DNA of 64,000 bases from Octopus sinensis (taxonomy: Eukaryota). The notes beneath the pieces were generated by a model that saw only the letters and a program-made list of their open reading frames with translations, made no database searches and was not told the DNA's origin. Of this stretch, positions 3,030 through 61,120 are shown one piece after another (the first letter of the stretch is position 1; each line of letters begins with the position of its first letter). Where the stretch lies: positions 171,492,001 to 171,556,000 of the forward strand of contig NC_042999.1 in NCBI RefSeq assembly GCF_006345805.1, given 5' to 3'. Made by a program: the position numbers and the translations under genes.

Positions 3030-3620
3030 ATAATATTAAAGAATATTAATAATAGACACATTTCTTATAATATTAATAATAAAATTACTAATAATATTAT
3101 TAATATTAGGTGTAATAGTAATTATAGTACAAACCTGTTTAAGGAAGAAATTGCCGAAAGAAAAAAGGGTTTATAATTGTACCGATATTAATACTGACGC
3201 TAATAGCTCTAGGATTGATTTTCATGTTACTGATACACCCGTGCGGAATATTTACAATTATAATGATTTTAGTGATAAATCTCCTAACAATAATCTTATG
3301 TGTATGAGTGCTATTAATAGCAATGACAGTCATAAAATGAATAACCCTATGAGTAGGCATAGCGGTCTTGATAATCTAGATAGTACCATTAAAACATGCA
3401 TATTTAAATATCGCAAATCCAAAAGTCAGCAGCACTCACGCAATGGTGATGTAAACTGGTTTCATTTACTTTGGTCACTAATATTATTACGAAACCGTGT
3501 TAAAAGTTATTTGCCTCTACGAAGAAAAATTTCCTCCCGTTCAGTAAATATTAACTATATGTTTGATAAACCTAATTTCATTCCTAGTCTAAAGAGCAGT
3601 TTAGCGGGAATAAAAGGGCG
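3030..3620 (+). mobile_element. Probable degenerate Penelope-like element fragment (Asn-rich linker plus thumb motif)
   Basis: ORF 3151-3669 is Asn-rich and contains RNGDVNWFHLLWS, resembling the PLE RKxxIIWFNPP motif. Confidence 0.4.
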
Positions 3621-3682
3621 TAGCCTGTCAACGCAGCTTGTCACTACGCAGCCTGTCACAATCAAATAATGTTGATGATGAA

Positions 3683-4429: not shown

Positions 4430-6480
4430 CTGAAAGAAGATAATAATGATAATAATATTAATGATAATAACTACAATCCTACTGTCAGTAATGTTGATAA
4501 TAATAACTATGATAATGACAAGAAAGAATGATGGAGGTAGTAGCGACAACAACAACAACAATAATGATAATGTTTACAAGCATAACGTCCTCAGCCATGG
4601 GAGTATTAGTAAATATCGAGTCATATGCCACTTTAACAATGATGACTGTGGCAGTGGAGCAGCTGCTATTAACAATCATGATACTCTCTATGAGCCAATT
4701 ATTTCAACTTCTGACTATGTTACCTGTATATGTAACGGTACTAGCCACTGTTGTAAAAGCAATAGTGTCAGCAGAAGCTCTGAAAACAATGCCCTTAACC
4801 CAGATGACACCCGCATTGATTCTAATATAAATAATGTTTATGAGGCTCTCAATAACCAAGGGAAATGTTTTAACTTCAACAATTGCGATGGTAGTACTCT
4901 TGCTGGTAATAATCGCAACTCCGGATAATACGGAGAATTCTATTGGTGCTAGCAATGATCATCACTCTCTACAGTACTTGAATAACACTGGCAGTACTAA
5001 TGTACACACATTTCCTAAATATGTGCTTTTAAAAAGAAGATTATATGCCCTGGATATGATTTATGCCTCACTAAAATTATTTTCTATAGATCAGATACAA
5101 AAAACTAATCTAACTTCCTTAATTTACATCGATTCCACTTCTCGCAAATTTAAACATTCTTATATATTCAATAATAGCAATGTCGCTAACGTTACAGTAC
5201 TCGCGGGAAAAATTGGGAATTAGAATACAAAAACATTATATACCAAATTAGGTGGAACATAAGAGAATTTGCCTGACTGTATTCAAAAGAATGGCATGGG
5301 TGTAGTCAATGTTGCGAAATATGAGAAAAGCTTAAATGTTCACGTAATATCAAACTTAGTGTGAAATGCTAACCTTACATTAGAAACACCCTCTTCTTTA
5401 AACCAGTTATCTAATTGACTTCCTATACCACTGCTTATATTTAATTTCTTAGGTTCAACTTAGGAATAACTGTAACGTATATAGACTCGTGTCATTTAAA
5501 TATTATTTAAATATTATTTATGCGATATTTCATAACATGTCTTTGGTCTCCTCGTTATTCCTTCTCATTACAGTTTTTGCAACCTCTGTATTCGATAACT
5601 AGTGACATATTTGATAATCCAGTGTATGACCTCTTAACCCTCTGTCATTAGTCTACGCTTTCTTCATGTTTTTATATTATCTTAAATCTTTATATTTTAT
5701 GTACGTATATATAAATGTGCGTGTATGTATAGGTGTATATCTATGTGTATATATACATTTCTGTGTATTTCTATGTGTATGTATAAATATTCATGAATAT
5801 ATATATGCGTGTGTGCGTGTGTGTATGTGTGTGTAAATATGTGTGTGTACATGTTTGTCTAGAAGTGTGAGTGTGGCCACGTGCATACCTATGCTACTAG
5901 AGTTGGATAGAAGGAAACTAAAATAGTGATGTCAGTCTTATGACTTTCCGTTGTCCTGAGGGTTGTAATAACTTTAATGTCAACTCATGGCTACGCTATT
6001 TCTTTGATTCTTGTACGTTATGAAAGTCAATGTTCGCTATAAACTAAGTTAGATAAGTGTTTTGAAATAAAGTAGTCGTTTGATCCCGTTGTTTCTCGCA
6101 TGCCTGTTGAAGCAACTCCTCAATAAATTCGAATATTATTTATAAAATACCGTATTTAACAATGTTGATATGATAGCTGCTTGAAACTTTAGCAGATAAT
6201 ACTGGTTATATGTTATGTAATATATGAATGCCTCAATAAATTTCTACTTAAACAGATGTAAATTTTTAACCCTGTTTGTGTTCTCCGTTTACAACTACGC
6301 CACATCTAAAACCAACTCCGAGTCAGATCTACGCTTTAATTGCATTTGGAACTTACATACATACAGCATCCTACCAAAAACTTGAAAGCTTCAGTGATTT
6401 ATTTACCTCAGTATGAAACCCATATTATTGCAAATAGCAATTTCTGCTGTCCTATGTATTTGTGTGACTAGATTCTGCTG
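4430..6480 (+). mobile_element. Old Penelope-like element 3' part (Asn-rich linker, degenerate GIY-YIG, non-coding tail)
   Basis: About 5120-5330 reads LIYIDSTSRKFKHS..NVTVLAGKI(W)ELEYKNIIYQIRWNI..CSQC across a frameshift, parallel to the GIY-YIG at 54891-55376. The 3' boundary is uncertain. Confidence 0.6.
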
Positions 6481-6599: not shown

Positions 6600-8437
6600 A
6601 TTAAAACGCTGCTATTAATTTCCTACATTGAGAAAACTCAAACTTATTCTTCAAGCGCAGACCACCTATCATAACGAACTGAATAAATTAAAGAATAGAA
6701 GAAACGCCAAAAAACTGAGAAGGCAGGGCAGCATGAAGAAAACAAACAATGAACAAGGGAAAAGGAAAAACAGTAAGTAAAAAGTAAAAGAAAAAAGAAA
6801 GTAAAAAGGTAAAGAACTCTCTTTAAAAGACAAGGCTGGAAAATTATCAACTGAGTCAGGAATAGCCAGAATTTTCTAATTCTTCAAAATATAATTTATA
6901 TATATGCTTGCTACCACTGAATATTTCTGACCTGGAGTTCTTTAGGGAGTTAGGAATCTTAAATCTGAACAGCATCTACGCTCTTTCAGTCAAACAAAGT
7001 CTATATTTATTCGATCCATTCAAATAAGGTATGTATTTACCAATTACTTTCCATTCAATCCCACGCGGTATTTTGTTATATTTCGCAGTCCATACGTAGC
7101 TAGCCAACGTAGTAGCTTTTCTTATGTCCTTATGTCTGAAGGAGGCTACGTGATTGTTATAGCGATTTTTAAATTCATCTTCACATAATCCAATGTAGAT
7201 CTTATCAGTTGCATTATTATTTAGGATTGCAGTACCTTCTGTCTCATTTATGATAGGTTTAGTCATACGTCGTTGGTCTCGCAACAGTTGCTACTAGATT
7301 CAGGCTCTTGGTATTGACCACCTGTAATGATACTCTTCATATTTAGGCAGCAGCTATACGATAATTTCCCAGAACGCCTATTAAATATTTTCCTATATTT
7401 GTGAGTGTCTTCAACTTCTTTGTCTCGAAGAGACAGGAATCTTTTACCAATGTTAATTTTTATATTGAGTGAAATGTGATCGCGAACCAAATAATTTTCC
7501 TTGGCCTATTTTAAAATTGCTTATTATCCTGATTAGTACAAGAGTGGTTATGTACTACTTTATCTTTGATGCCACTAGATCTATTATTGATATTTTGATT
7601 ATTATTAACGGGAATATATATATAATTAACTTTGAAGCCACTATTGGCATGGGCTTTGTTATAATAGGGGCAGCTTTCACGAAAATTTCTTTGGAAGAAG
7701 AGAGGTTAGACACTCTGTTACTAATATTAGCTACCGGATTTTTAAATATTACAGGAAGGTGACAAGACTATTGATGTATATATAAAAGTGTCCCTTATGC
7801 AAAGAATTATGCAAAGGTTTATCCGAGAAGGAGTCGAATTCTAGGGAAACGCATAAATAATCAACTATAGAGACATTAGTAGCTACTGTAATTTTAAGTC
7901 CTAATTGATTAAACGTAGAAATTAGTTGCTTCCTATGTGTGTCAAGAAAATATCCAAACCGTCGCCAGGGTATAGGCCAATGTCATGAGATGGGTATCTA
8001 TATTACAATGTGTTTATTATAAACAATCCCACAAGATCACAGACGTCAGCACTATCATATGACACTATAGATACATCAAATATTTCATCACTGTGTGACT
8101 TTGTTTTACCTATGCAAATCCATTATTGAACAATAGTGTTTTCGTCGCATGCCTGATAAAATCTAGGTCTATAGGGTCAAAATCAGCATATGATTTAACT
8201 AAGTAAATAGCTTTATTAAGCAGTGATCTAGATATAGAGGGATAAATGTCTATAATATCAAACTGGGTAACTTTACACTTATTCTTATGTTTGATGTTAT
8301 TAAATCAATCTGTTACAGTAAAACTGTTACTCTATTGTTGAAACCCAGCAATTTCCCCAACACTATGATTAATATTTGTAAGTATTGTTTTAGCTTCTAG
8401 CCCAATTTCAGGTCACGCTGAGTTTAACAATCTACAA
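6600..8437 (-). mobile_element. Penelope-like retroelement (RT + C-terminal GIY-YIG), 5'-truncated, degenerate
   Basis: RT: KCKVTQFDIIDIYP, FDVSIVSYDSADVCDLVGLFI, IGLYPGDG (GLYRDDG-like). Thumb: NIGKRFLSL..KIFNRRSGKLSYSC. EN: IYIGLCEDEFKNRYNNH..TTLASYVW..RLCLTE. Confidence 0.92.
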
Positions 8438-8439
8438 GA

Positions 8440-9000
8440 TTGGTAAAAGATTCCTGTCACTCCTAGACAAACATTTCTAGCAACTTACAGATACAGGAAA
8501 ATATTCAATCGGCGTTCTGCCCCAATATGAAGAGTATCATTACACGCGGTCCATAGCAAGAGCTTGAATCCAGTTGCAACTGTCGTGACACAGGATCTTG
8601 TCAACTTGACCAATGATGTATTACTAAATCAAACATATATGAGGCAGACGTTTGTGCAACACTAAATAATAATACAATTGATAAGATTTATATTGCCTTA
8701 TGTGAAAGCGAATTTAAAAATCTCTATGCTAATCCCATAGCCTCCTTCAGACATAGGGACAAAAGTGATGCTACTAAGTTGGTTAACTACGTATGGACCT
8801 TGAAAGATAAGGAAACACCGGATGTTATTAATGGGAAAGTAATGGAGAAATCCATACCTTATGCGAATGGATCGAATAAATGTAGAATTTGTTTGGCTGA
8901 AAGAGCGCAGGTCCTGCAGAGATCTAAGATCCTTAATTTTCTATTGAAATCTGCTAAAAAAATAACGCAACTTCGAGAAGCAGTCTGGCTTCCACTAGAG
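8440..9000 (+). mobile_element. Inverted partial copy of the same Penelope-like 3' region (thumb to GIY-YIG)
   Basis: ATTGGTAAAAGATTCCTGTC at 8440 is the reverse complement of about 7431-7452; ORF 8779-9084 NYVWTLK..PYANGSNKCRICLAERA parallels 6976-7284. Confidence 0.88.
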
Positions 9001-9335
9001 AAAGTGATATTTCATAATTATAAGAAGATAGTACATTGTTATTTTTGTTTTACTCCCAAAGTTCACCTAACATTAGCTTGGTGAATTCAACTTTCCCAGA
9101 AAATGACAAGGATAAGAAGCAGTTCTTAGGATGTACTTTATAACTACTTCAGCAACATGTCGATTGTCGCATAAATGTTCACTGGTTATCTGTAATAAGA
9201 GCTAATTTCTCTCAGTCATGCATCAGCAGTTTAATAGTCCACTGTTCCGGTCACCGTGACATTGAATGCATCGAGCAGAACATTTCAATATTGTAAGTAG
9301 TTTTAACTGGAACAAAACTGCTGACGGCTTTCAAA

Positions 9336-17861: not shown

Positions 17862-17992
17862 ATATATAAATATTATATATATTAAATATATAAATATATA
17901 AATATATATAGTAAATATATAGCGTAAATATATATATATAATACTATGAAATCTCTTTTTAAATATATATGAATATATATAAATACATATAT
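17212..17992. repeat. Long degenerate (TA)n tract (~780 bp)
   Basis: Direct. Confidence 0.95.
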
Positions 17993-18226
17993 CAATAATA
18001 GAAATATTAAAATTACTAAGTCTCTCTAAAAGAGAACAACGGCAGCGTTCCCGGAAAATAATAGTTATCGCCATACTAATATGGCATTCTTATAAAAATA
18101 AGATAAAGCTGTCCGCTTATTAGCTCCATGAGGCAACGCCTTAAGTTAGCTATTTGATACATAAACTGTATCCATATAACCTTCGAACAAGGGAGGGGGT
18201 CAGTCGCTCCACACTACTTGACCGGC

Positions 18227-18277
18227 AGCTACAGACGCGTTTCGGGGTATTGCCCCTTTTCAATGAAGATCGTAACC
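18227..18277 (-). ncRNA. Type I hammerhead ribozyme, U3-A8 core variant
   Basis: Minus strand GGTTACgatcttCA-TTGAAAA-GGGGcaataCCCC-GAAA-CGCG-TC^TGTAGCT; palindromic stem III ACGCGT as in PLE minimal hammerheads. Confidence 0.8.
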
Positions 18278-18800
18278 AGAACCAGTAGGTGTCGCTTCGG
18301 ACAATCTCTGTTCCGAAGGTTTTATTTACCTAGCTTTCGGTGAATACATCCACTTGTTTTCAATAAGAGAAATATTAAATTCCTAAGTCTCTCTAAAAGA
18401 GAACAACGCAGCGTCCCGGAAAATAATAGTTATCGCCATACAATTGGCATTCTTATAAAAATAAGAATAAAGCTGTCCGCTATTAGCTCCATGAGGCCTC
18501 GCCTTAAGTTAGCTATTTGAACACAAACTGTATCCATATAACCTTCGAACGAGGGAGGTCAGTCGCTCCACACTACTTGACCGCAGCTAATAAGCGGAAC
18601 TTTATTCTTATTTTTATAAGAATGCCATATTAGTATGGCGATAACTATTATTTTCGGGAACGCTCCGTTGTTCTCTTTTAGATATGTAGACTTAGTAATT
18701 TTAATATTTCTATTATGAAAACAAGTGGATGTATCCACCGAAGCTATATATAAATTAAAACCTTCGAACAGAGATTGTCAGAAGCGACACCTACTGGTCT

Positions 18801-18847
18801 GGCTACGCTGCATTGAAAGGGGCAATACCCGAAACGCGTCTGTAGCT
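18801..18847 (+). ncRNA. Second hammerhead copy (inverted monomer)
   Basis: GGCTACgctgCA-TTGAAAGGGGcaataCCC-GAAACGCGTC^TGTAGCT; one A and one C shorter than the first copy (mutation or homopolymer error). Confidence 0.65.
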
Positions 18848-18955
18848 GCCGGTCAAGTAGGTGGAGCGACTGACCTCCCTGTTCGAAGGTTATATGGATT
18901 ACAGTTTGTGTATCAATAGCTAACTTAAGGCGATGGCCTCATGGAGCTAATAGCG

Positions 18956-20589: not shown

Positions 20590-22600
20590 GTTTCTGCCTG
20601 TCTCTGTCTCTCTTGTTTACTTTCGTGGGTTCGAGGTCGTTGTGAATTCTTGGCAAAGAAGAAGAAGAAGGAGAAGGAGGAGGAGGAGGAAAAGAAGAAG
20701 ACGAATGCGGGAGTGCCCTGATAGTAGTAGAATGCTAAATGGCCAAGTGCCCTAAAAGTGACTTGTGGATTATAGTAGTCATTGAATTCTTGTGACAGCT
20801 CTTTTGAATGTATTGTTTTTTAATATTTGCGCAAGTGTTTTTCTAAGCAGCAATAGTAGTAAAGTAAGGAAGGAAGTGGTGGAAAGAAAGAGGGACGAAG
20901 AAGAAGAGAAAGAGAAAAGATAATATAATAAGGGTATGCAGGTGGATGATAGTTGTAGGATGTTAAATGGTCAGGTGACCTATAAGCAATTTTCTTGTGG
21001 ATTATAGCAGTGATTGAGGCTGTTTTTTAATGAATTATTGGGTATCTCTTGAATGTATCATTTGTAATATTTGCGCGTGTGTTTGTGTTATTCTAAGGCC
21101 GTGGTGGATATGCCGTTTGTTGTAGATGTGTTCAAAAGGATTCTGTATTTTGTAATAAAGAGAGTCTCTTTATTAATTCGTTGGCTACAGGTTGTATCGT
21201 CCCTGAATTAGTAGAGGGGGAAAATTCTAAAGCTTTTTGTTATTGGTACAAATGTCGATGTGTTGGTAAATGCTATTTTTCTGTCTTGGGAATTTTGATC
21301 TGGGATCTGGGCAGAGCCATCCTTTGACGTAAACTGTTTTTTTGTTTGGCCCATATATTGCTCTTGACTTCCAGAGTGGATTAGTGGGTATATCAGGTTC
21401 TCCGAATTGTATGTGAAACTTCTTTTCACTGTTTGAAGGAGAACTCTGATCCCTCAATTATATTCACGCATATCCCGCAGTTGAGTCTTCCACATTTTTA
21501 CTGACGGCTTCTGTGTTGCTGATGAGCGTATTCGGGCGTGTTAGGAGACTTTTCATAGATTTGGGTTGTTTCTTGCTTTTTATGATGGTGTGTGTTTGGA
21601 GGATTAAGTTCATACTGTGGTCCTTTCTTAACAGGGGAATGTTTTGAAGGATGGTGTCGAAGGCTAAGAATGCTGTGTGTGGATATGTATAGAAGGGCTT
21701 TTGGTTGTAAATCCTGCTTTGTAATAACCTCAAATTGAGACCTATAACAGGTCCCGCATGCGAAACCCACCACCTCTTAAAACCATTCCTCAAGCATGTC
21801 AAAAGCGACATAAGGGACGAACTGGATATGCTCAATCACCTTCCTGAAACAATAAAGAAAATCACTCTAGTAAAATCCTTCGATGCAGTCCACCTCTATT
21901 CCAATATTCCCCACAACCTAAGAATAGAGGCAATTCAATTCTGGCTGGAGAATTACACCAACGAACTCCCACATTACATCAAAAAGGAATTGGTGATAGA
22001 AGGGCTAAAATTCATCTTGGAGAATAACTACTTCGTCTTCAAAGACCCCTTTTGAACGCAGCTACAACAAACGACATATCTACCACGGCCTTTGAACAAC
22101 AGAAACACACACGCAAATATTTAAAATGATACATTCAAGAGATACCCAATAATTCCTTTAAAACTTTTTAGGTCACCTGACCATTTAACATCCTACTACT
22201 ATCATACCACCTGCATTCCCTTATTATATTATCTCTTCCCCTTCTTCTTCGTCTTATTTCTCTCCACCACCTTCCTCACTTTACTAGTATTATAAACAAT
22301 ACATTCAAAAGAGATCTCTCAAGAATTCAATGACTACTAACATTCACAACAAGTCACTTTCAGGGCACTCGACCATTTAACATCCTACTACTATCATGGC
22401 ACTCCCGCATTCTTCTTCTTTTTCTTTTCCTCTTCTTCTTCTTCTTCTTCTTCTTCTTCTTTTTCTTCTTCTTCTTCTTCTTCTTCTTCTTCTTCTTCTT
22501 CTTCTTCTGCTTCTTCTTTTTTCTTCTTTTTCTTCCTCCTCTCCTTCTTCTCTGCCAAGAATTCGCAACGACCTCGAACCCACAAGAGTAAACAGACAGG
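20590..22600. mobile_element. Rearranged Penelope/Poseidon-like element with ~550-bp inverted terminal copies
   Basis: 20590-21135 and 22055-22600 are inverted repeats. The minus strand 21135-21735 has a GIY-YIG remnant (NSENLIY..QYMGQT); plus 21735-22055 is PLE RT (LRPITGP..KSFDAVHLYSNIPH..LKFILENNYFVF). Confidence 0.85.
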
Positions 22601-29322: not shown

Positions 29323-31347
29323 ACATATAGCCGTATTTGTATTTGTGCGTGTGTGCATATATATAAACTTCTGATTAAGATTTCGGTTATTGAAAATGGG
29401 GGCTGTTTCAAATTTGATAGCACTACATCATTTGAGATATATTTTATGTCATAATATATATTTGTGTTTTCATAAGACAAAGTGTATCTAGGTGTAAGTA
29501 GATTGCCTGCTATTTCTTGGAGGAAGTTTTCCTGGTGCCTTTAAAAAATTACTTTCTTTCTTGTTTGCTTATTGAACATCGTAGTAGTAAAAAGAAATAA
29601 AATTGTTGGTTTACAATGTTGCTAAATAATTTGAGGCTGACACTGTTAGAGGAAGTCTGTACTGTCTCTGGTTCCAAGCTTTGTGTGTCTAGTAATATTA
29701 AACTGCATATCGTTTCATAAATGTTGATTGGATTTTTTACGTTTCACATATTTTGCAACCCTCAAGGCAATGTTTAAAACAAAAGATTTTTGTGATATTG
29801 ATGCCATTTATTTTAGTCGTAATTTTTGCGATTCTACTACTAACCTGCTTCAATTCTCATAATGATCAGCTTTGTTTAGTGGGAATAAGTGGGCAGCAGA
29901 ATTAAAACTGACGCAGGGAGGAGCAGAGGATGATGGTATCAGGATCTCTGCACTGGAAATTTCTATGGTACCACAAGTATATTTCTCGGACCATTTTGAC
30001 TTTATTGTTAATTTTCTCATTCTGGATTATGGTAATATCGACAGTGTTACACTTAAATCCTTGGTATTCCTTGATACATCGTGAAGCTTTTCCGACTGAA
30101 CTGAATATGACTGCTAAGTACAATAACTATTTCTAGTTTAGATTAAAATCATTTACTGATATCTAATCCATTATGTACAGTCAAGTGCTTAGAGTCTTCT
30201 GCAAAAACTGTTTAGTACGTCTGATGTCAATCGTAACATCATTTCTGTAAATAGTAAAAAAGAACTAGGCTCTATTCAAAATCAAGGAGACAATTAAGGG
30301 CTTTTCCAGATTTTCAGTAAATTTCGTTGATCACAAAATATATTTTCTCTGCTGATGAGCATTTCATCTAATGCTGTAGATTAAAGACAATGCAACTGTA
30401 GATCTCCAAACTGCTGCCTTATAAACAACAACTGTCACGGGAAAGAACTCGTATACAAGGACAAGATCACGGACACCAACTGAGTAGGAAACACGTATAT
30501 CGGGTTGACGTGCAACTACTTCAAGGAAATGTATATACAACACCTGGCGTAATGTCCCTCGATTCATTGTAGCATTCACAATAATCTCTGCGAACTAATC
30601 GGGGATGTGTTTTCCAAAATGGAGGTGAACACTTTTCTCCTCGTGATCAGCTTGAAAAATTGTTGACTAAGATATTTTCCTAATTTTCTGAACATGAAAG
30701 CAATGGTAGACTTAATTCACACACATGCACACAAAGAGAGACAGACAGACAGACACACATATCTGACATCCAGTGTTTAAGATTTCTAATCCAAGCTGCC
30801 TATAACAGTTTACCAAATACAAACGTCATACAAAGGGCAAAAGTGGATCCTGTCCCTCTTTCAACATCTTTTCAGCAGCTGCTCCAGACACTTAGCTGAT
30901 TTCCACTACCGCTGATGGCATGCGAAGGTGCTCAGAGGGGTTGCAGTGGTGTTATTTCAGCAATAGCTATAAAGCCTATCACTGGAATTTTAGAGGAGGT
31001 CATTACATGGCTTTAGAAAAAAAGGGCAAACCACTGGTTGGCTGATAGTGGGTTATAAGGTGGGTCTTGATGAAAACTGGTAGGGTCAAATGGGTCAAGG
31101 AGTCTGATGTTGAAAGTTCCGATAGCACTGGGTCCTGAGAAACATCGCTGATGATGCGTTCTAGACCATCCGCAAAATTTATGCATACAAACACACACAC
31201 ACACACACGCAAGCGCACACACGCACACGCATGCGCCCCCATGTATACATACATACATATATATATATATATATGTATGTATGTATATATATATATATAT
31301 TATATATCTATATCTATATATTTATATATATATATTATATATATATA

Positions 31348-52400: not shown

Positions 52401-53139
52401 GTGAAGAATCGCAAATTCAAGCCTGTGAAATAATGTTATTTTGAATTCTTTAAATAAAATCGAAGATATCAGTGATAAGAATCGTTCAGTTTAAGTGCAG
52501 TTGCCTTTATTCGTTTGCTGTCTTTGAAATTATTCAGGATACAGCTTCAAATGTATATAAGATTAAAGAAAAACACGTTGCTGCCTATAGAACTTCTTAT
52601 GTATTCATTTTAAGAAAACCCAAGAATAATTATATAAGTAAGATAGAACATATTGTAAGTTGAATCGATCACTGCTGATTACAAATAATTAATTTTCCAG
52701 TTACGGAACTTGTGTATAGCAGCTCTTGTACAGTGCGGAAGACTTGTTCGATTGTTTGACATTCGTATTATCTTTATGGAAATGCATTTCTAATAGAATG
52801 CACAGCAATCCGACCTAGTCGATAATGAATACGTATCTCAAAGTTGTTATAAATTAGTGATGAAACAAATTGGGTAAATGTTAAATTTGAAGACAGGTGT
52901 CATAGATATATATATATATATATATATTTGTTGAAATGGATAAATGAATTATCTTGTTACGGATTATTCAAAATTTAACCGATACCTGGGTAGCAAAAAT
53001 CACAACAGAAAAAACACGGTTGAGGTTACGACCATGGGGTGTCGCAACCGTGCCTTAGCGCGGATAATTGAAGTTTTATATATTTAGTGAAGAGAAGAAA
53101 TGGAGCTGAACGAAGATTCTACAAACTTCCTTTTTATTA

Positions 53140-53223
53140 TTTTCTACACATGTTTCAAAGGCTGCAAATTTCCAAATTCGGATTGAATAAGGAGACCATT
53201 TTGCAGCTTTCTCTTCAGGAAAA
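53140..53223 (-). ncRNA. Type I hammerhead ribozyme with long stem II
   Basis: TTTTC-CTGAAGA-GAAAGCTGCAAA..TTTGCAGCCTTT-GAAA-CATGTG-TA^GAAAA. Confidence 0.85.
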
Positions 53224-53831
53224 ACCAGGAATATAAATCTCCAAAGCAAATGCGCAGCAAGCTATTCGAACAAAACGCTCCCTAGGAGCCCATGGTAAGG
53301 CACAAAACTGTCTCTCAATGTGCGTTGACGTCAGGGTGTGTGAAGGCCGACGAAAAAGTCCGTTGGAACAAATCGAGGTCAAACTGCGGTTAAATTTGGT
53401 AGGGGAAGAATTCAAGAAAACCAAAGAGTGTGAATACATTCTGTATAACTAATGTTAATGTTCGAATTGTTTTAAGAATGAAAGCTATCTTATTTGGGTG
53501 TGAGAAACTACTTACATGTATGTGTGTGTGCGCCTGTGTATGTGTGGCAGTATGTTAGGAAGCAGTTAGTGGGAAAATATATTGCAGATATTGTAGGTCA
53601 AGCGGCTGATAAAAGCCTGTGTCTGTGTGTTCGTCTGTGGTCAGTTTATACACCGATGACTTGTTAAACAAGGGGAGTATAATCCCTGATATTGTTTCTA
53701 AATAAGTAGCAGATCATACGCTAAAAGGGGAGTAATTTCCCTTTACAAATTTAATTCAAAATTTTTTTTCCAAATTTTTTCCAAAATTTTTTTCCTTTCT
53801 AAGGACATCAAGGTGTTAATTATCTTAGGCT

Positions 53832-54317
53832 TCAATTGTATGCAAGAAATGTGTGCCGCCTCCAATGGGGACATCTGAAAGAGTTTTGCAAAATCGCGTT
53901 AACTAGCCGCCCTCGGGCGAACAAAATGTGAAAAAGTTCAGAGTTGCAGAGATTACAGATTCTTTTGCCTCTATCAAACGGTACAGACACCGATAAAATC
54001 GACCATTCCAGTCTAAATGCTGAATTCGCGTTCTTCAAACGCCAGATCAATTTACTTAGTCCGGTCGCGTGTTGTTTTCTAAAATCTCGAAATGTTGTGA
54101 AGTGGTTCGATATTCTCACGGCCAATTTTGATGATGACGCTCCGATATACAAGTAGACATCTGATTCAGTACAAACTCTGCATTGGTAAATGGCATTTCT
54201 AATCTTGGAAATACTAGATAAGAACCTTATTCTATTGGGATTGGCTTCAGATATTAATACGGCGTTCTTATTACTATGATGATTGCGAGAACTGCGGCTG
54301 TCTTCGACATTATACAC
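53832..54317 (-). CDS. GIY-YIG endonuclease domain of Penelope-like element (left arm)
   Basis: NAIYQC..YLYIGASS..RISNH..TGLSKLIW..ICNLCNSE..CPH. There is no ATG; it is a truncated part of a longer ORF, open further upstream. Confidence 0.85.
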   Translation of the reverse strand: MYNVEDSRSSRNHHSNKNAVLISEANPNRIRFLSSISKIRNAIYQCRVCTESDVYLYIGASSSKLAVRISNHFTTFRDFRKQHATGLSKLIWRLKNANSAFRLEWSILSVSVPFDRGKRICNLCNSELFHILFARGRLVNAILQNSFRCPHWRRHTFLAYN

Positions 54318-54890
54318 CCCATTATCAATACTATTTAATGGAATATCACCTGTATATTCCCTGGCACTGAGATCGCTGTGATTGCTAATGTCCGTGATGC
54401 TACTGTTGTCAAAACCGTTGCTAAAAGTGTTATTGGCACTCTCTACATTAATGACTCGGACAGTGCTCTCTGGGTATTATGCCACTGTTAACTCACACAA
54501 AGTTAGGATAGCCTTCTCCAACACTAAGAATCTCTCACAGATAATTTCCTCCCATAACAATAAGCTGCTAAATAAGGCCCTCTCACCAGAATAACGCGCA
54601 GTAATAATAATAATAATAATAATGATAATAGAACCGGCACAGAGATTAGCAATCTCCATACCAGCCATGGAGTTAATAATAGGAATAAGGATAGGAGCAA
54701 TGGTGACGACACTAGCGTTAGTAATGGTAATGGGGATGAGAGCACTGTCCGAGTCATTAATGTAGAGAGTCCCAATAACACTTTTAGCAACGGTTTTGAC
54801 AACAGTAGCATCACGGACATTAGCAATCACAGCGATCTCAGTGCCAGGGAATATACAGGTGATATTCCATTAAATAGTATTGATAATGGG

Positions 54891-55376
54891 GTGTATAATG
54901 TCGAAGACAGCCGCAGTTCTCGCAATAATCATAGTAATAAGAACGCCGTATTAATATCTGAAGCCAATCCCAATAGAATAAGGTTCTTATCTAGTAATTC
55001 CAAGATTAGAAATGCCATTTACCAATGCAGAGTTTGTACTGAATCAGATGTCTACTTGTATATCGGAGCGTCATCATCAAAATTGGCCGTGAGAATATCG
55101 AACCACTTCACAACATTTCGCGATTTTAGAAAACAACACGTAACCGGACTAAGTAAATTGATCTGGCGTTTGAAGAACGCGAATTCAGCATTTAGACTGG
55201 AATGGTCGATTTTATCGGTGTCTGTACCGTTTGATAGAGGCAAAAGAATCTGTAGTCTCTGCAACTCTGAACTTTTTCACATTTTGTTCGCCCGAGGGCG
55301 GCTAGTTAACGCGATTTTGCAAAACTCTTTCAGATGTCCCCATTGGAGGCGGCACACATTTCTTGCATACAATTGA
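54891..55376 (+). CDS. GIY-YIG endonuclease domain of Penelope-like element (right arm)
   Basis: Same protein with 4 aa differences in 161. The frame is open from ~54576 through an Asn/Ser-rich linker; GTG is not a real start. Confidence 0.85.
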   Translation: MYNVEDSRSSRNNHSNKNAVLISEANPNRIRFLSSNSKIRNAIYQCRVCTESDVYLYIGASSSKLAVRISNHFTTFRDFRKQHVTGLSKLIWRLKNANSAFRLEWSILSVSVPFDRGKRICSLCNSELFHILFARGRLVNAILQNSFRCPHWRRHTFLAYN

Positions 55377-55980
55377 AGCCTAAGATAATTAACACCTTGA
55401 TGTCCTAAGAAAGGAAAAAAATTTTGGAAAGAATTTGGAAAAAAGATTTTGAATTAAATTTGTAAAGGGAAATTACTCCCCTTTTAGCGTATGATCTGCT
55501 ACTTATTTAGAAACAATATCAGGGATTATACTCCCCTTGTTTAACAAGTCATCGGTGTATAAACTGACCACAGACGAACACACAGACACAGGCTTTTATC
55601 AGCCGCTTGACCTACAATATCTGCAATATATTTTCCCACTAACTGCTTCCTAACATACTGCCACACATACACAGGCGCACACACATATACATGTAAGTAG
55701 TTTCTCACACCCAAATAAGATAGCTTTCATTCTTAAAACAATTCGAACATTAACATTAGTTATACAGAATATATTCACTTTGGTTTTCTTGAATTCTTCC
55801 CCTACCAAATTTAACCGCAGTTTGACCTCGATTTGTTCCAACGGACTTTTTCGTCGGCCTTCACACACCCTGACGTCAACGCACATTGAGAGACAGTTTT
55901 GTGCCTTACCATGGGCTCTTAGGGAGCGTTTTGTTCGAATAGCTTGCTGCGCATATGTTTTGGAGATTTATATTCCTGGT

Positions 55981-56064
55981 TTTTCCTGAAGAGAATGCTG
56001 CAAAATGGTCTCCTTATTCAATCCGAATTTGGAAATTTGCAGCCTTTGAAACATGTGTAGAAAA
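55981..56064 (+). ncRNA. Type I hammerhead ribozyme (right arm)
   Basis: TTTTC-CTGAAGA-GAATGCTGCAAA..TTTGCAGCCTTT-GAAA-CATGTG-TA^GAAAA; predicted cleavage after 56059. Confidence 0.85.
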
Positions 56065-56117
56065 TAATAAAAAGGAAGTTTGTAGAATCTTCGTTCAGCT
56101 CCATTTCTTCCCTTCAC

Positions 56118-56170
<53 letters not shown>

Positions 56171-60149: not shown

Positions 60150-60345
60150 AGATAAACAACTTTCTGGAGAAGAGAATGGGAGAATGGGAAGCTGACATGT
60201 ATAAAGATATCGCTAGGTAACATGAAAATATGCAGAGACATTTTTGAAGGCGACTCCCTTATTCCGTTACTCTTCGTCATTGCACTAATATACTGAGAAA
60301 ATCTAGGCCGGCCTATGAGTTTACCTAATCCAAGATAAGAATGAA
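60150..60345 (+). mobile_element. Short R4/Dong-type RT fragment, ending at the hammerhead element
   Basis: VNMKICRDIFEGDSL..LLFVIAL parallels 870-950. Confidence 0.6.
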
Positions 60346-60349
60346 TTAT

Positions 60350-60407
60350 TACCGTATTGGTCCAATTTCGGGGTTAATTCATAAGAATTTTCCCCTCTTC
60401 AGCGATA
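60350..60407 (-). ncRNA. Type I hammerhead ribozyme (inverted copy)
   Basis: Exact reverse complement of 60891-60948. Confidence 0.88.
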
Positions 60408-60890
60408 AATACGTGGGATATAAGTGAAATACTTACTCATACCCATACTTATGAATTAACCCCGAAATTGGACCGATACGGTAATAACGGATTTTTTAGA
60501 AATTTCTATCGGGTTGTGTCGAGACGCATAAATTATAATGGTTATTGACAATTTTTGTCTTTTCAGCATATTTGGCATTAGAATTTTTCTTTTGCCTTTA
60601 TCTTGTAAATTATTTATAAATTTAACCTTTAAAGGTATTTTTTGATATGCTGGCCATTGATAAAATTTTTTTCCCGAAAAAAATTTTATCCTTCATTAGT
60701 TATAAATTGAATAGTGTTCACTTCCGGATTCTTTCACTCTGTGAAAGTTTCTAGTTCGAATCACACGTGCCTCGAGATGTGCCGAAGATTTTCTATTTTG
60801 GATATATTTGGGGTGCTTAGGTCTGCTCTGGACTTAGTGCTTGCTTTTTCCATGGGTATGAGTAAGTATTTCACTTATATCCCACGTATT

Positions 60891-60948
60891 TATCGCTGAA
60901 GAGGGGAAAATTCTTATGAATTAACCCCGAAATTGGACCAATACGGTA
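60891..60948 (+). ncRNA. Type I hammerhead ribozyme, canonical core
   Basis: TATCG-CTGAAGA-GGGGaaAATTCttatGAATTaaCCCC-GAAA-TTGGaCCAA-TA^CGGTA. Confidence 0.9.
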
Positions 60949-61084
60949 ATAACGGATTTTTTAGAAATTTCTATCGGTTTGTTTCGAGACGCATAAATTA
61001 TAATGGTTATTGACAATTTTTGACTTTTTTTCGGCATATTTATTTGGCATTAGAATTTTTATTTTGCCCTTATCTTGTAAATTA

Positions 61085-61120
<36 letters not shown>

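What the first reader, a model, noticed from the sequence alone, without database searches (positions are those of the whole stretch)
52926..56127. 3.2-kb palindrome: two divergent intact GIY-YIG domains, each followed by a hammerhead
Seen: ~1.39-kb arms differing by roughly 1-2% (eye count), both endonuclease frames open (4 aa differences), no RT core, and canonical hammerheads ~600 bp past each stop. Inference: a recent 5'-truncated PLE insertion with an inverted second copy. Read-through from either side gives a >1.3-kb dsRNA hairpin, a potential ADAR/Dicer substrate (relevant if the host is a hyper-editing cephalopod). The hammerhead would be masked by the antisense arm unless it folds first. 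The EN type (CxLC..E, terminal CPH) resembles Naiad-like PLEs; the clade call is tentative.
Basis: partly seen in the sequence, partly recalled or inferred. Interest (0 to 1): 0.7.

Follow-up and report, generated by a model that had tools for sequence, protein, structure and literature searches.

The report
Head-to-head Penelope remnant lacking zinc finger
This palindrome is two truncated, likely dead copies of a Penelope-type jumping gene joined head to head inside an AT repeat of what is likely an octopus genome, an arrangement already described, and its one unusual trait is that the family lacks a zinc-finger motif proposed to help find such repeats.

Summary
The palindrome is real: 1,390-bp arms with 17 substitutions and one 4-bp indel, two open GIY-YIG frames, a type I hammerhead about 610 bp past each stop, and (TA)n at both ends. 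It is a head-to-head pair of 5'-truncated copies of a high-copy Penelope-like retroelement (PLE). An Octopus sinensis relative carries RT and this endonuclease in one protein. It is not Naiad: the endonuclease is C-terminal. It works like the Hydra clade (CxxC, CxH, hammerhead, TA target), and the same inverted layout is listed for Hydra-clade Penelope-13_HM. Neither frame has a methionine, and the right copy has a frameshifting deletion, so 'intact' holds for the domain only. New detail: this lineage lacks the Hydra-defining CxCX5C linker finger (6 relatives share the loss; all 9 published Hydra proteins seen keep it) yet sits in (TA)n. The copy reaching further 5' has the shorter 3' end, which favours two separate priming events over simple fold-back. 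Transcription, dsRNA and editing are untested; in any read-through transcript the hammerhead would emerge after its antisense partner. Junction not confirmed by reads.

The parts
52906..52927 (.). left (TA)n target tract
   Evidence: sequence
52928..54470 (-). left copy: 5'-truncated PLE with the longer 3' end
   Evidence: family contigs cover it in 4 of 4 runs laid
52928..53076 (-). about 150-bp 3' extension present only in the left copy; element sequence, not flank
   Evidence: summed contig depth at 52970-53043 is of the same order as at 53118-53191 in all 4 runs, and zero at 52600-52895
53140..53223 (-). type I hammerhead, predicted cleavage after 53145
   Evidence: descriptor search; folds
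53832..54196 (-). GIY-YIG endonuclease domain, left copy; open frame without Met
54471..54474 (.). 4-base filler at the head-to-head junction
   Evidence: left arm ends at 54470; family contigs stop matching before 54475 (loose ends)
54475..56127 (+). right copy: 5'-truncated PLE reaching 263 bp further 5', with the shorter 3' end
54475..54737 (+). unique spacer = RT-thumb tail and start of the Asn-rich linker; about 31-bp frameshifting deletion at 54588
   Evidence: tblastn of P0154: residues 210-249 in frame +1 (38 of 40 identical), 260-324 in frame +3, residues 250-259 absent
54588..55013 (+). Asn/Ser-rich linker with no CxCX5C finger
   Evidence: 23% Asn, 15% Ser over 131 residues; 0 Cys in residues 100-146; alignment
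55014..55376 (+). GIY-YIG endonuclease domain, right copy (Y149, Y162-I-G164, R173, H177, C226/C229, E232, N245, C254/H256); open frame without Met
   Evidence: model pLDDT 89, best fold match I-TevI catalytic domain Z 9.9, rmsd 2.4, 89 aligned
55981..56064 (+). type I hammerhead, predicted cleavage after 56059
   Evidence: folds
56121..56169 (.). right (TA)n target tract, joined at an internal AT run of the element
   Evidence: sequence

Best explanation
The unit is two 5'-truncated copies of one Hydra-like Penelope retroelement family joined head to head in a (TA)n tract, likely made in one insertion event and likely unable to make protein. Shown: layout, open Met-less endonuclease frames, GIY-YIG fold, hammerhead motifs, an RT-bearing relative, loss of the linker finger. 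Inferred mechanism: the RT-endonuclease of an intact parent nicked both strands of the symmetric (TA)n target; each nick primed its own cDNA on RNA from the same source copy, one from the far 3' end and one 150 nt inside at an AT run that resembles the target; both stopped early (at positions equal to 54738 and 54475) and the two ends were joined with a 4-base filler. The arms have since drifted apart by 1.2%, roughly 1-3 million years if they began identical and were not converted. The hammerheads are passengers of the 3' UTR; a read-through transcript would hold only one sense copy, made after its antisense partner, so it would be sequestered in duplex and has no cis partner for the dimeric fold.
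For: Architecture: (flanks are not homologous; the repeat ends at element termini). Parent: P0151 (O. sinensis XP_036366068.1) has GSxD, YRDD and thumb motifs, then matches the spacer frame at 92.5% and linker-EN at 72%; loose ends before 54475 in 2 of 4 runs (as listed) continue into sequence that translates to the thumb peptide seen in P0154. High-copy family with 3'-heavy contig depth in 4 of 4 runs of 3 organism codes (summed depth, not copy number). Precedent: inverted 5'-truncated copies are typical of PLEs (PMC8557442) and listed for Penelope-13_HM with a hammerhead on each strand (supplement); an older pair of the same layout lies at 6874-9036 of this window. A purified PLE protein cuts and extends both strands and starts RT at internal sites (PMC11167929). 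Same source: at 13 of 17 listed variant positions in the left frame both arms share the letter that differs from the runs' other letter. Hammerhead: active-like fold -13.9 kcal/mol against -161 for duplex with the other arm; monomer helix III pair probability 0.03-0.05; helix III octamer is self-complementary, -6.0.
Against: No listed contig bridges the central junction, and only 32 of 3,546 pieces were shown, so the structure rests on the assembly. The unequal 3' ends are explained equally well by a later 150-bp deletion between the internal AT run and the TA tract, which would let a fold-back origin stand. No full-length intact ORF of this family was found, so an active parent is inferred; P0151 is a gene model that begins at RT motif 4 and leaves the frame late in the endonuclease. 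Gene conversion between arms could make the insertion look younger than it is.
Confidence: 0.78

Rival explanations
1. Same element, other route: the first cDNA (right copy) folded back and primed on itself 263 nt from its end, copying itself into the left arm; the right copy later lost 150 bp of its 3' end by microhomology deletion into the TA tract.
For: Minus-strand geometry fits fold-back (the loop lies on the primer strand). Arms share private letters at 13 of 17 listed positions. Self-priming on an antisense template is proposed for head-to-head Penelope repeats, and microhomology deletions are common in them (PMC3846280).
Against: Needs a second event, because a fold-back copy cannot be longer at its 3' end than its template. 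The junction has a 4-base filler and a 263-bp loop, not the short palindrome described for A. vaga junctions.
Confidence: 0.25
2. An older single insertion was duplicated in inverted form at DNA level, or the arms are kept alike by gene conversion, so 1.2% understates the age.
For: Both arms share letters that differ from nearly all family contigs in the runs laid (for example 54172, 53908, 53369, 53126).
Against: The inverted repeat stops at element termini and includes no flank. Shared letters also follow from one source copy or from a species difference between window and runs. At 3 listed coding positions the right arm keeps the family letter and the left differs, as independent drift gives.
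Confidence: 0.1
3. The palindrome is a functional host module: a dsRNA source for editing or silencing, or a domesticated endonuclease pair.
For: Both frames are open with catalytic residues kept; arm duplex about -2,550 kcal/mol if transcribed through; octopus has much hyper-editing and many long near-perfect inverted repeats (PMC5625713). An O. sinensis gene model (P0003) splices from the endonuclease into the 3' UTR at sites that exist in the window.
Against: No Met in either frame; frameshift upstream; open frames are expected at 0.6% drift per arm; 5 of the 7 arm substitutions in the coding stretch fall in codons that change the residue, counting the adjacent pair as one codon, no sign of constraint. 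An older pair of the same kind in the window has simply decayed.
Confidence: 0.05
4. The palindrome is an assembly or fold-back read artefact.
For: Junction not bridged by any listed contig and flank not covered in the 4 runs laid; such structures are known to trouble assemblies (PMC8557442).
Against: Arms differ by 17 substitutions with a transition excess (10:7) and no homopolymer indels; 3' ends differ; flanks are unrelated; each end sits on a TA tract as PLE ends do.
Confidence: 0.04
5. It is a Naiad element.
For: (TA)n target; Naiad remnants exist in Octopus.
Against: Endonuclease is C-terminal and ends the ORF; RT lies upstream in P0151; hammerhead present; no CCHH.
Confidence: 0.01

Closest known systems
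Hydra clade of C-terminal EN+ Penelope-like elements (Craig et al. 2021, PMC8557442), e.g. Penelope-13_HM
   Same: C-terminal GIY-YIG without CCHH, CxxC and CxH around the catalytic E and N, type I hammerhead near the 3' end with an ac..gt-type short helix III, (TA)n target; Penelope-13_HM is listed with a 5'-truncated inverted copy and a hammerhead on each strand.
   Different: No CxCX5C linker finger (present in 9 of 9 Hydra proteins in Fig. S7 text); about 140-residue Asn/Ser-rich linker; 3' UTR of about 900 bp; hammerhead helix II long with a 30-nt hairpin extension; two 3' ends 150 nt apart.
Hydra-1_Obim (Octopus bimaculoides)
   Same: Octopus host, Hydra-type RT and endonuclease motifs, (TA)n target, 3' hammerhead.
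   Different: Different family by eye: it keeps a CSCR..CP..C finger, has a short linker and an unrelated hammerhead sequence. Not aligned by program.
Adineta vaga Penelope families with Asn-rich inserts and inverted pLTRs (PMC3846280)
   Same: Head-to-head inverted structures; in-frame Asn-rich segment between RT and EN.
   Different: Their inserts are 460-554 residues or more; host is a rotifer; junctions carry short palindromes.
Naiad PLEs
   Same: (TA)n target, inverted 5'-truncated copies.
   Different: Naiads have N-terminal EN, CCHH, and no canonical hammerhead; all three differ here.

Membership tests
EN+ Penelope-like elements | RT and GIY-YIG endonuclease in one ORF | tested here: met
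   Met in relative P0151 (RT motifs then linker and EN, 72-92% identical to the window frames); the window copies are truncated
EN+ Penelope-like elements | GIY-YIG fold with catalytic R, H, E, N | tested here: met
   R173, H177, E232, N245 at columns at least 90% conserved among 102 aligned sequences; fold match to I-TevI Z 9.9, EndoII 7.7, UvrC 5.9; Foldseek had no match at E<=0.001, best rows were GIY-YIG nucleases; Pfam gave no hit above cut-off
EN+ Penelope-like elements | type I hammerhead in the terminal repeat region | tested here: met
   descriptor hit in both arms, 0 of 1,000 arm shuffles; Rfam silent; cleavage activity not tested
EN+ Penelope-like elements | pLTR partial tandem | not testable with these tools
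   5' end of the family is not in the window and no genome is held
EN+ Penelope-like elements | optional inverted 5'-truncated copy | tested here: met
Hydra clade | C-terminal EN | tested here: met
   stop follows CPH motif; RT upstream in P0151
Hydra clade | CCHH motif absent | tested here: met
   the CRVC in the window core is private: relatives P0003 and P0151 and nearly all contigs have Tyr at 154; 0 of 74 scorable EN hits had CxxC in the core
Hydra clade | CxxC and CxH flanking the conserved E and N | tested here: met
   C226-x-x-C229, C254-x-H256
Hydra clade | CxCX5C linker motif upstream of GIY | tested here: not met
   0 Cys in residues 100-146; absent also in P0001, P0002, P0003, P0004, P0006, P0151; present in 33 of 34 scorable RT-search hits, the exception being P0151
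Hydra clade | insertion in (TA)n | tested here: met
   both ends of this one insertion; not tested family-wide
Hydra clade | DKT and RWK motifs in the N-terminal RT region | not testable with these tools
   no N-terminal piece of this family was found; 23 of 29 long relatives have DKT and 13 of 29 RWK; close RT relative P0156 has DKT and RWR
Hydra clade | RT groups with Hydra elements | tested here: inconclusive
   P0151 groups with finger-bearing P0155, P0156 and with P0162, P0021 (SH-aLRT 97; quick tree, 56 rows, no labelled references, no outgroup)
Naiad clade | N-terminal EN followed by CxC linker and RT | tested here: not met
   domain order RT-EN in P0151; EN followed by stop and UTR
Naiad clade | CCHH present, canonical hammerhead absent | tested here: not met

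The most novel reading that the evidence does not exclude
A recently active octopus lineage of Hydra-type Penelope elements replaced the linker zinc finger with an Asn-rich spacer and still inserts into (TA)n, which shows the finger is not needed for microsatellite targeting; its head-to-head insertions with 3' ends 150 nt apart record two independent priming events and keep seeding kilobase-long near-perfect dsRNA templates in a hyper-editing animal.
Probability: 0.4. Interest if true: 0.5.

Novelty: new variant of a known kind. Interest (0 to 1): 0.3.

Why it matters
The palindrome itself is ordinary PLE debris. Two small points are of use to PLE specialists. First, the linker finger has been proposed to help recognise (TA)n (PMC8557442); a finger-less lineage that still lands in (TA)n is a natural test of that idea. 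Second, how PLEs make head-to-head repeats is unsettled (self-priming in PMC3846280 against two-strand priming in PMC11167929); the relation between 5' extent and 3' end across this family's insertions separates the two and can be counted in any good assembly. It also shows that host gene models in O. sinensis named 'dyrk1', 'myb-like' or 'DDB_G' are pieces of this element.

Tried and rejected
Own-genome search: no genome held, so no copy count, empty site or full-length parent. Rfam: 0 hits at gathering over 64 kb, 12 weak hits at E<=10 over the unit, none a hammerhead. Pfam: nothing above cut-off for the window proteins or 7 relatives. Word-index search for long relatives of the EN: none of 56 candidates scored. 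PDB sequence search with the 102-row profile: 0. Metagenome scans with P0151 and with a hammerhead pattern: nothing; viral-contig scan could not be built from the alignment. Sequencing runs: no RNA holder on record among 24 listed; 'RNA?' labels are guesses. In the 4 runs laid, the unique left flank had no cover and no listed piece bridged the junction; A>G and T>C counts in the RNA-guessed run (8, 15) were like those of the other three (5-7, 13-17); family-wide contigs cannot show editing, so this is no evidence either way. The careful tree did not finish; the quick tree is quoted, and its 'noEN' labels come from a pattern that misses some endonucleases, e.g. P0021. Earlier scan notes: 3 look-ups, nothing. 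Considered and dropped: CCHH finger from the CRVC in the core (private change); a stand-alone EN-only foldback family (RT-bearing relative exists); a homopolymer sequencing error at 54588 (10 codons are missing, not one base).
Full report
1. Observation. The inverted repeat is real. Arms 53077-54470 and 54738-56127 align over 1,390 bases with 17 substitutions and one 4-base indel; 10 are transitions, 7 transversions. The unit is not symmetric: a 267-bp unique spacer lies between the arms, and the left copy runs about 150 bp further at its 3' end (52928-53076). Both outer ends abut (TA)n, and 2 kb of flank on each side share nothing at E<=0.01. Frames 53832-54476(-) and 54576-55376(+) are open and differ at 5 of 212 residues, 2 of them in the nuclease domain; neither has a Met. 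A type I hammerhead descriptor hits each arm, 610 and 614 bp past the stops, with 0 of 1,000 arm shuffles and 2 of 40 whole-window shuffles positive. Rfam does not detect them.

2. The protein. Pfam gives no hit above cut-off. phmmer over 1.84 billion representatives gave 1,856 relatives at E<=0.001, 150 listed. An AlphaFold model on 102 rows (pLDDT 89) matches I-TevI at Z 9.9, rmsd 2.4, 89 aligned, then T4 EndoII 7.7 and UvrC 5.9; Foldseek had no match at E<=0.001 though its top rows were the same family. Y162, G164, R173, H177, C226, C229, E232, N245 and C254 sit at columns conserved in at least 90% of rows.

3. The parent. The closest named relatives are Octopus sinensis gene models, so the host is likely an octopus; this is inferred. 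P0151 (XP_036366068.1) carries GSxD, YRDD and thumb motifs, then matches the spacer frame at 92.5% over 40 residues and the linker-EN frame at 72% over 198. So the family is RT first, EN last. Against P0154, residues 250-259 are missing in the window and the frame changes at 54588: a deletion of about 31 bp in the right copy. Contigs of 4 runs (3 organism codes; 4 of 24 runs listed) cover the element in 26 of 30 bins, deepest at the 3' end, and do not cover the unique flank. Listed loose ends before 54475 in X1 and X3 continue into sequence that translates to the thumb peptide upstream in P0154, which fixes the right copy's 5' end at 54475 and leaves a 4-base filler. No listed piece bridges the junction; 32 of 3,546 pieces were shown. 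No full-length ORF of the family turned up.

4. Clade. Craig et al. 2021 (PMC8557442; passages, the Hydra section in full, supplement parts 2, 58, 59 and search hits) define Naiad by an N-terminal EN and lack of canonical hammerheads; both fail here. They define Hydra by C-terminal EN, no CCHH, CxxC and CxH around E and N, hammerheads, (TA)n targets, DKT, RWK and a CxCX5C linker. The first five hold. The CRVC in the window's core is private (Tyr in P0003, P0151 and nearly all contigs). DKT and RWK could not be tested. The linker motif fails: no Cys in the 47 residues before the core, replaced by an alignable cysteine-poor segment shared with 6 relatives at 39-72% identity (P0001, P0002, P0003, P0004, P0006, P0151), 3 of them O. 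sinensis and 3 unnamed. All 9 Hydra proteins in the text of Fig. S7 keep it, Hydra-1_Obim included, as do 33 of 34 scorable proteins among P0151-P0215. Among the 150 EN hits, 74 could be scored and 48 had the motif; of the 26 without, 3 belong to this lineage and the rest look decayed, frameshifted or carry part of the motif, by eye. In a quick tree of 56 RT stretches P0151 groups with finger-bearing relatives (SH-aLRT 97; no outgroup), which suggests secondary loss. I file it as an EN+ PLE that works like Hydra, a finger-less variant, not a plain Hydra member. Four literature searches showed no description of such a lineage; Repbase, Dfam and the O. vulgaris repeat library of PMC13282606 (passages only; 31 recently active Penelope-like families) were not seen and may hold it unnamed.

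5. The palindrome is a known layout. Inverted 5'-truncated copies are typical of PLEs. The Hydra sheet lists Penelope-13_HM with one, and a hammerhead on each strand. Cervera and de la Pena (PMC4209133, part 1 of 4) note paired hammerheads on opposite strands. This window holds an older pair of the same build at 6874-9036, arms 74% alike, with RT remnants and an intact finger motif, and a small inverted hammerhead pair at 60.3-61.1 kb.

6. How it arose (inferred). Both copies point outward, so each 3' end faces a TA tract. A fold-back copy cannot outrun its template's 3' end, yet here the copy reaching further 5' (right) has the shorter 3' end. Two primings, one per strand of a symmetric target, give this directly; the anole PLE protein cuts and extends both strands and starts inside the RNA (PMC11167929, parts 1-2 of 4). 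The short end falls on an internal AT run like the target. The rival is self-priming (PMC3846280, passages and Discussion) plus a later 150-bp deletion. I put these at about 60 to 25. At 13 of 17 listed variant positions in the coding stretch both arms carry the same letter against the runs' other letter (these are from the 40 of 148 variants shown), so both came from one source or were converted. With the rate quoted in PMC13282606 (JC 0.09 = 25 My) the arms give 1.7 My, Poisson range 1.0-2.7, a rough figure.

7. Function. Without a Met and with an upstream frameshift, neither copy can give protein unless spliced into a host transcript. Open frames are expected at this age. If transcribed through, the arms would pair (about -2,550 kcal/mol), and long near-perfect duplexes track hyper-editing in octopus (PMC5625713, passages), but nothing here shows transcription. 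The hammerhead has a stable helix II but weak helices I and III (pair probabilities under 0.08; active-like fold 3 kcal/mol above the minimum), with a self-complementary helix III octamer suited to dimers. A read-through RNA has one sense hammerhead, always in the arm made second, and duplex with the first arm (-161 against -14 kcal/mol) would win. Cleavage there would trim only the end of the duplex. The retrozyme preprint (10.64898/2026.07.22.740005, part 1 of 5) concerns tandem hammerhead units and does not describe this layout in the part read.

8. Verdict. Real, ordinary in layout, dead as coding sequence, wrongly assigned to Naiad. The finger-less linker and the unequal 3' ends are modest, testable additions. 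Interest 0.3; new variant of a known kind.

Noticed in passing
window 6874-9036: Older head-to-head pair of a finger-bearing Hydra-type PLE: minus copy with RT remnants (7669-8439), thumb and EN; plus copy starting near 8436; arms 74% alike over 524 bases.
   Followed up: partly
window 60337-61096: Small non-coding unit with two type I hammerheads on opposite strands (CUGA at 60402 minus, 60896 plus), a partial direct repeat (60445-60624 / 60910-61096) and a TA/TATG tract at the right end; looks like a miniature pLTR tandem plus inverted copy, unrelated to the finding's 3' end.
   Followed up: partly
window 30304-30681: A further decayed Hydra-type endonuclease remnant on the plus strand.
   Followed up: no
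window 52930-53232: Summed contig depth over the last 300 bp is about tenfold that over the EN, and loose ends at 53232 and 53118 show other elements that share this 3' end but not the sequence upstream: sister families or a short non-autonomous derivative.
   Followed up: no
window 54450-54523: Depth spike in runs X1 and X3 at the right copy's 5' end, several times the neighbouring bins; unexplained.
   Followed up: no
window 54469-54474: The junction filler with its two preceding bases is the reverse complement of a 6-base word about 10 bases upstream of the breakpoint in the family's loose-end sequence; could be a short template jump or chance.
   Followed up: partly
window 55153 and 55821 (mirrored in the left arm): Splice donor-like and acceptor-like sites matching where O. 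sinensis gene model P0003 jumps from the EN into the 3' UTR; whether the splice is real is unknown.
   Followed up: partly
window 4434-4928 and 3040-3669: Asn-rich open frames resembling the low-complexity linker type of these elements; no match was found to the finding's proteins.
   Followed up: no
window 20655-22594 and 17992-18955: Other inverted repeat pairs (75% over 492 bases; 92-93% over 115-136 bases), not examined.
   Followed up: no
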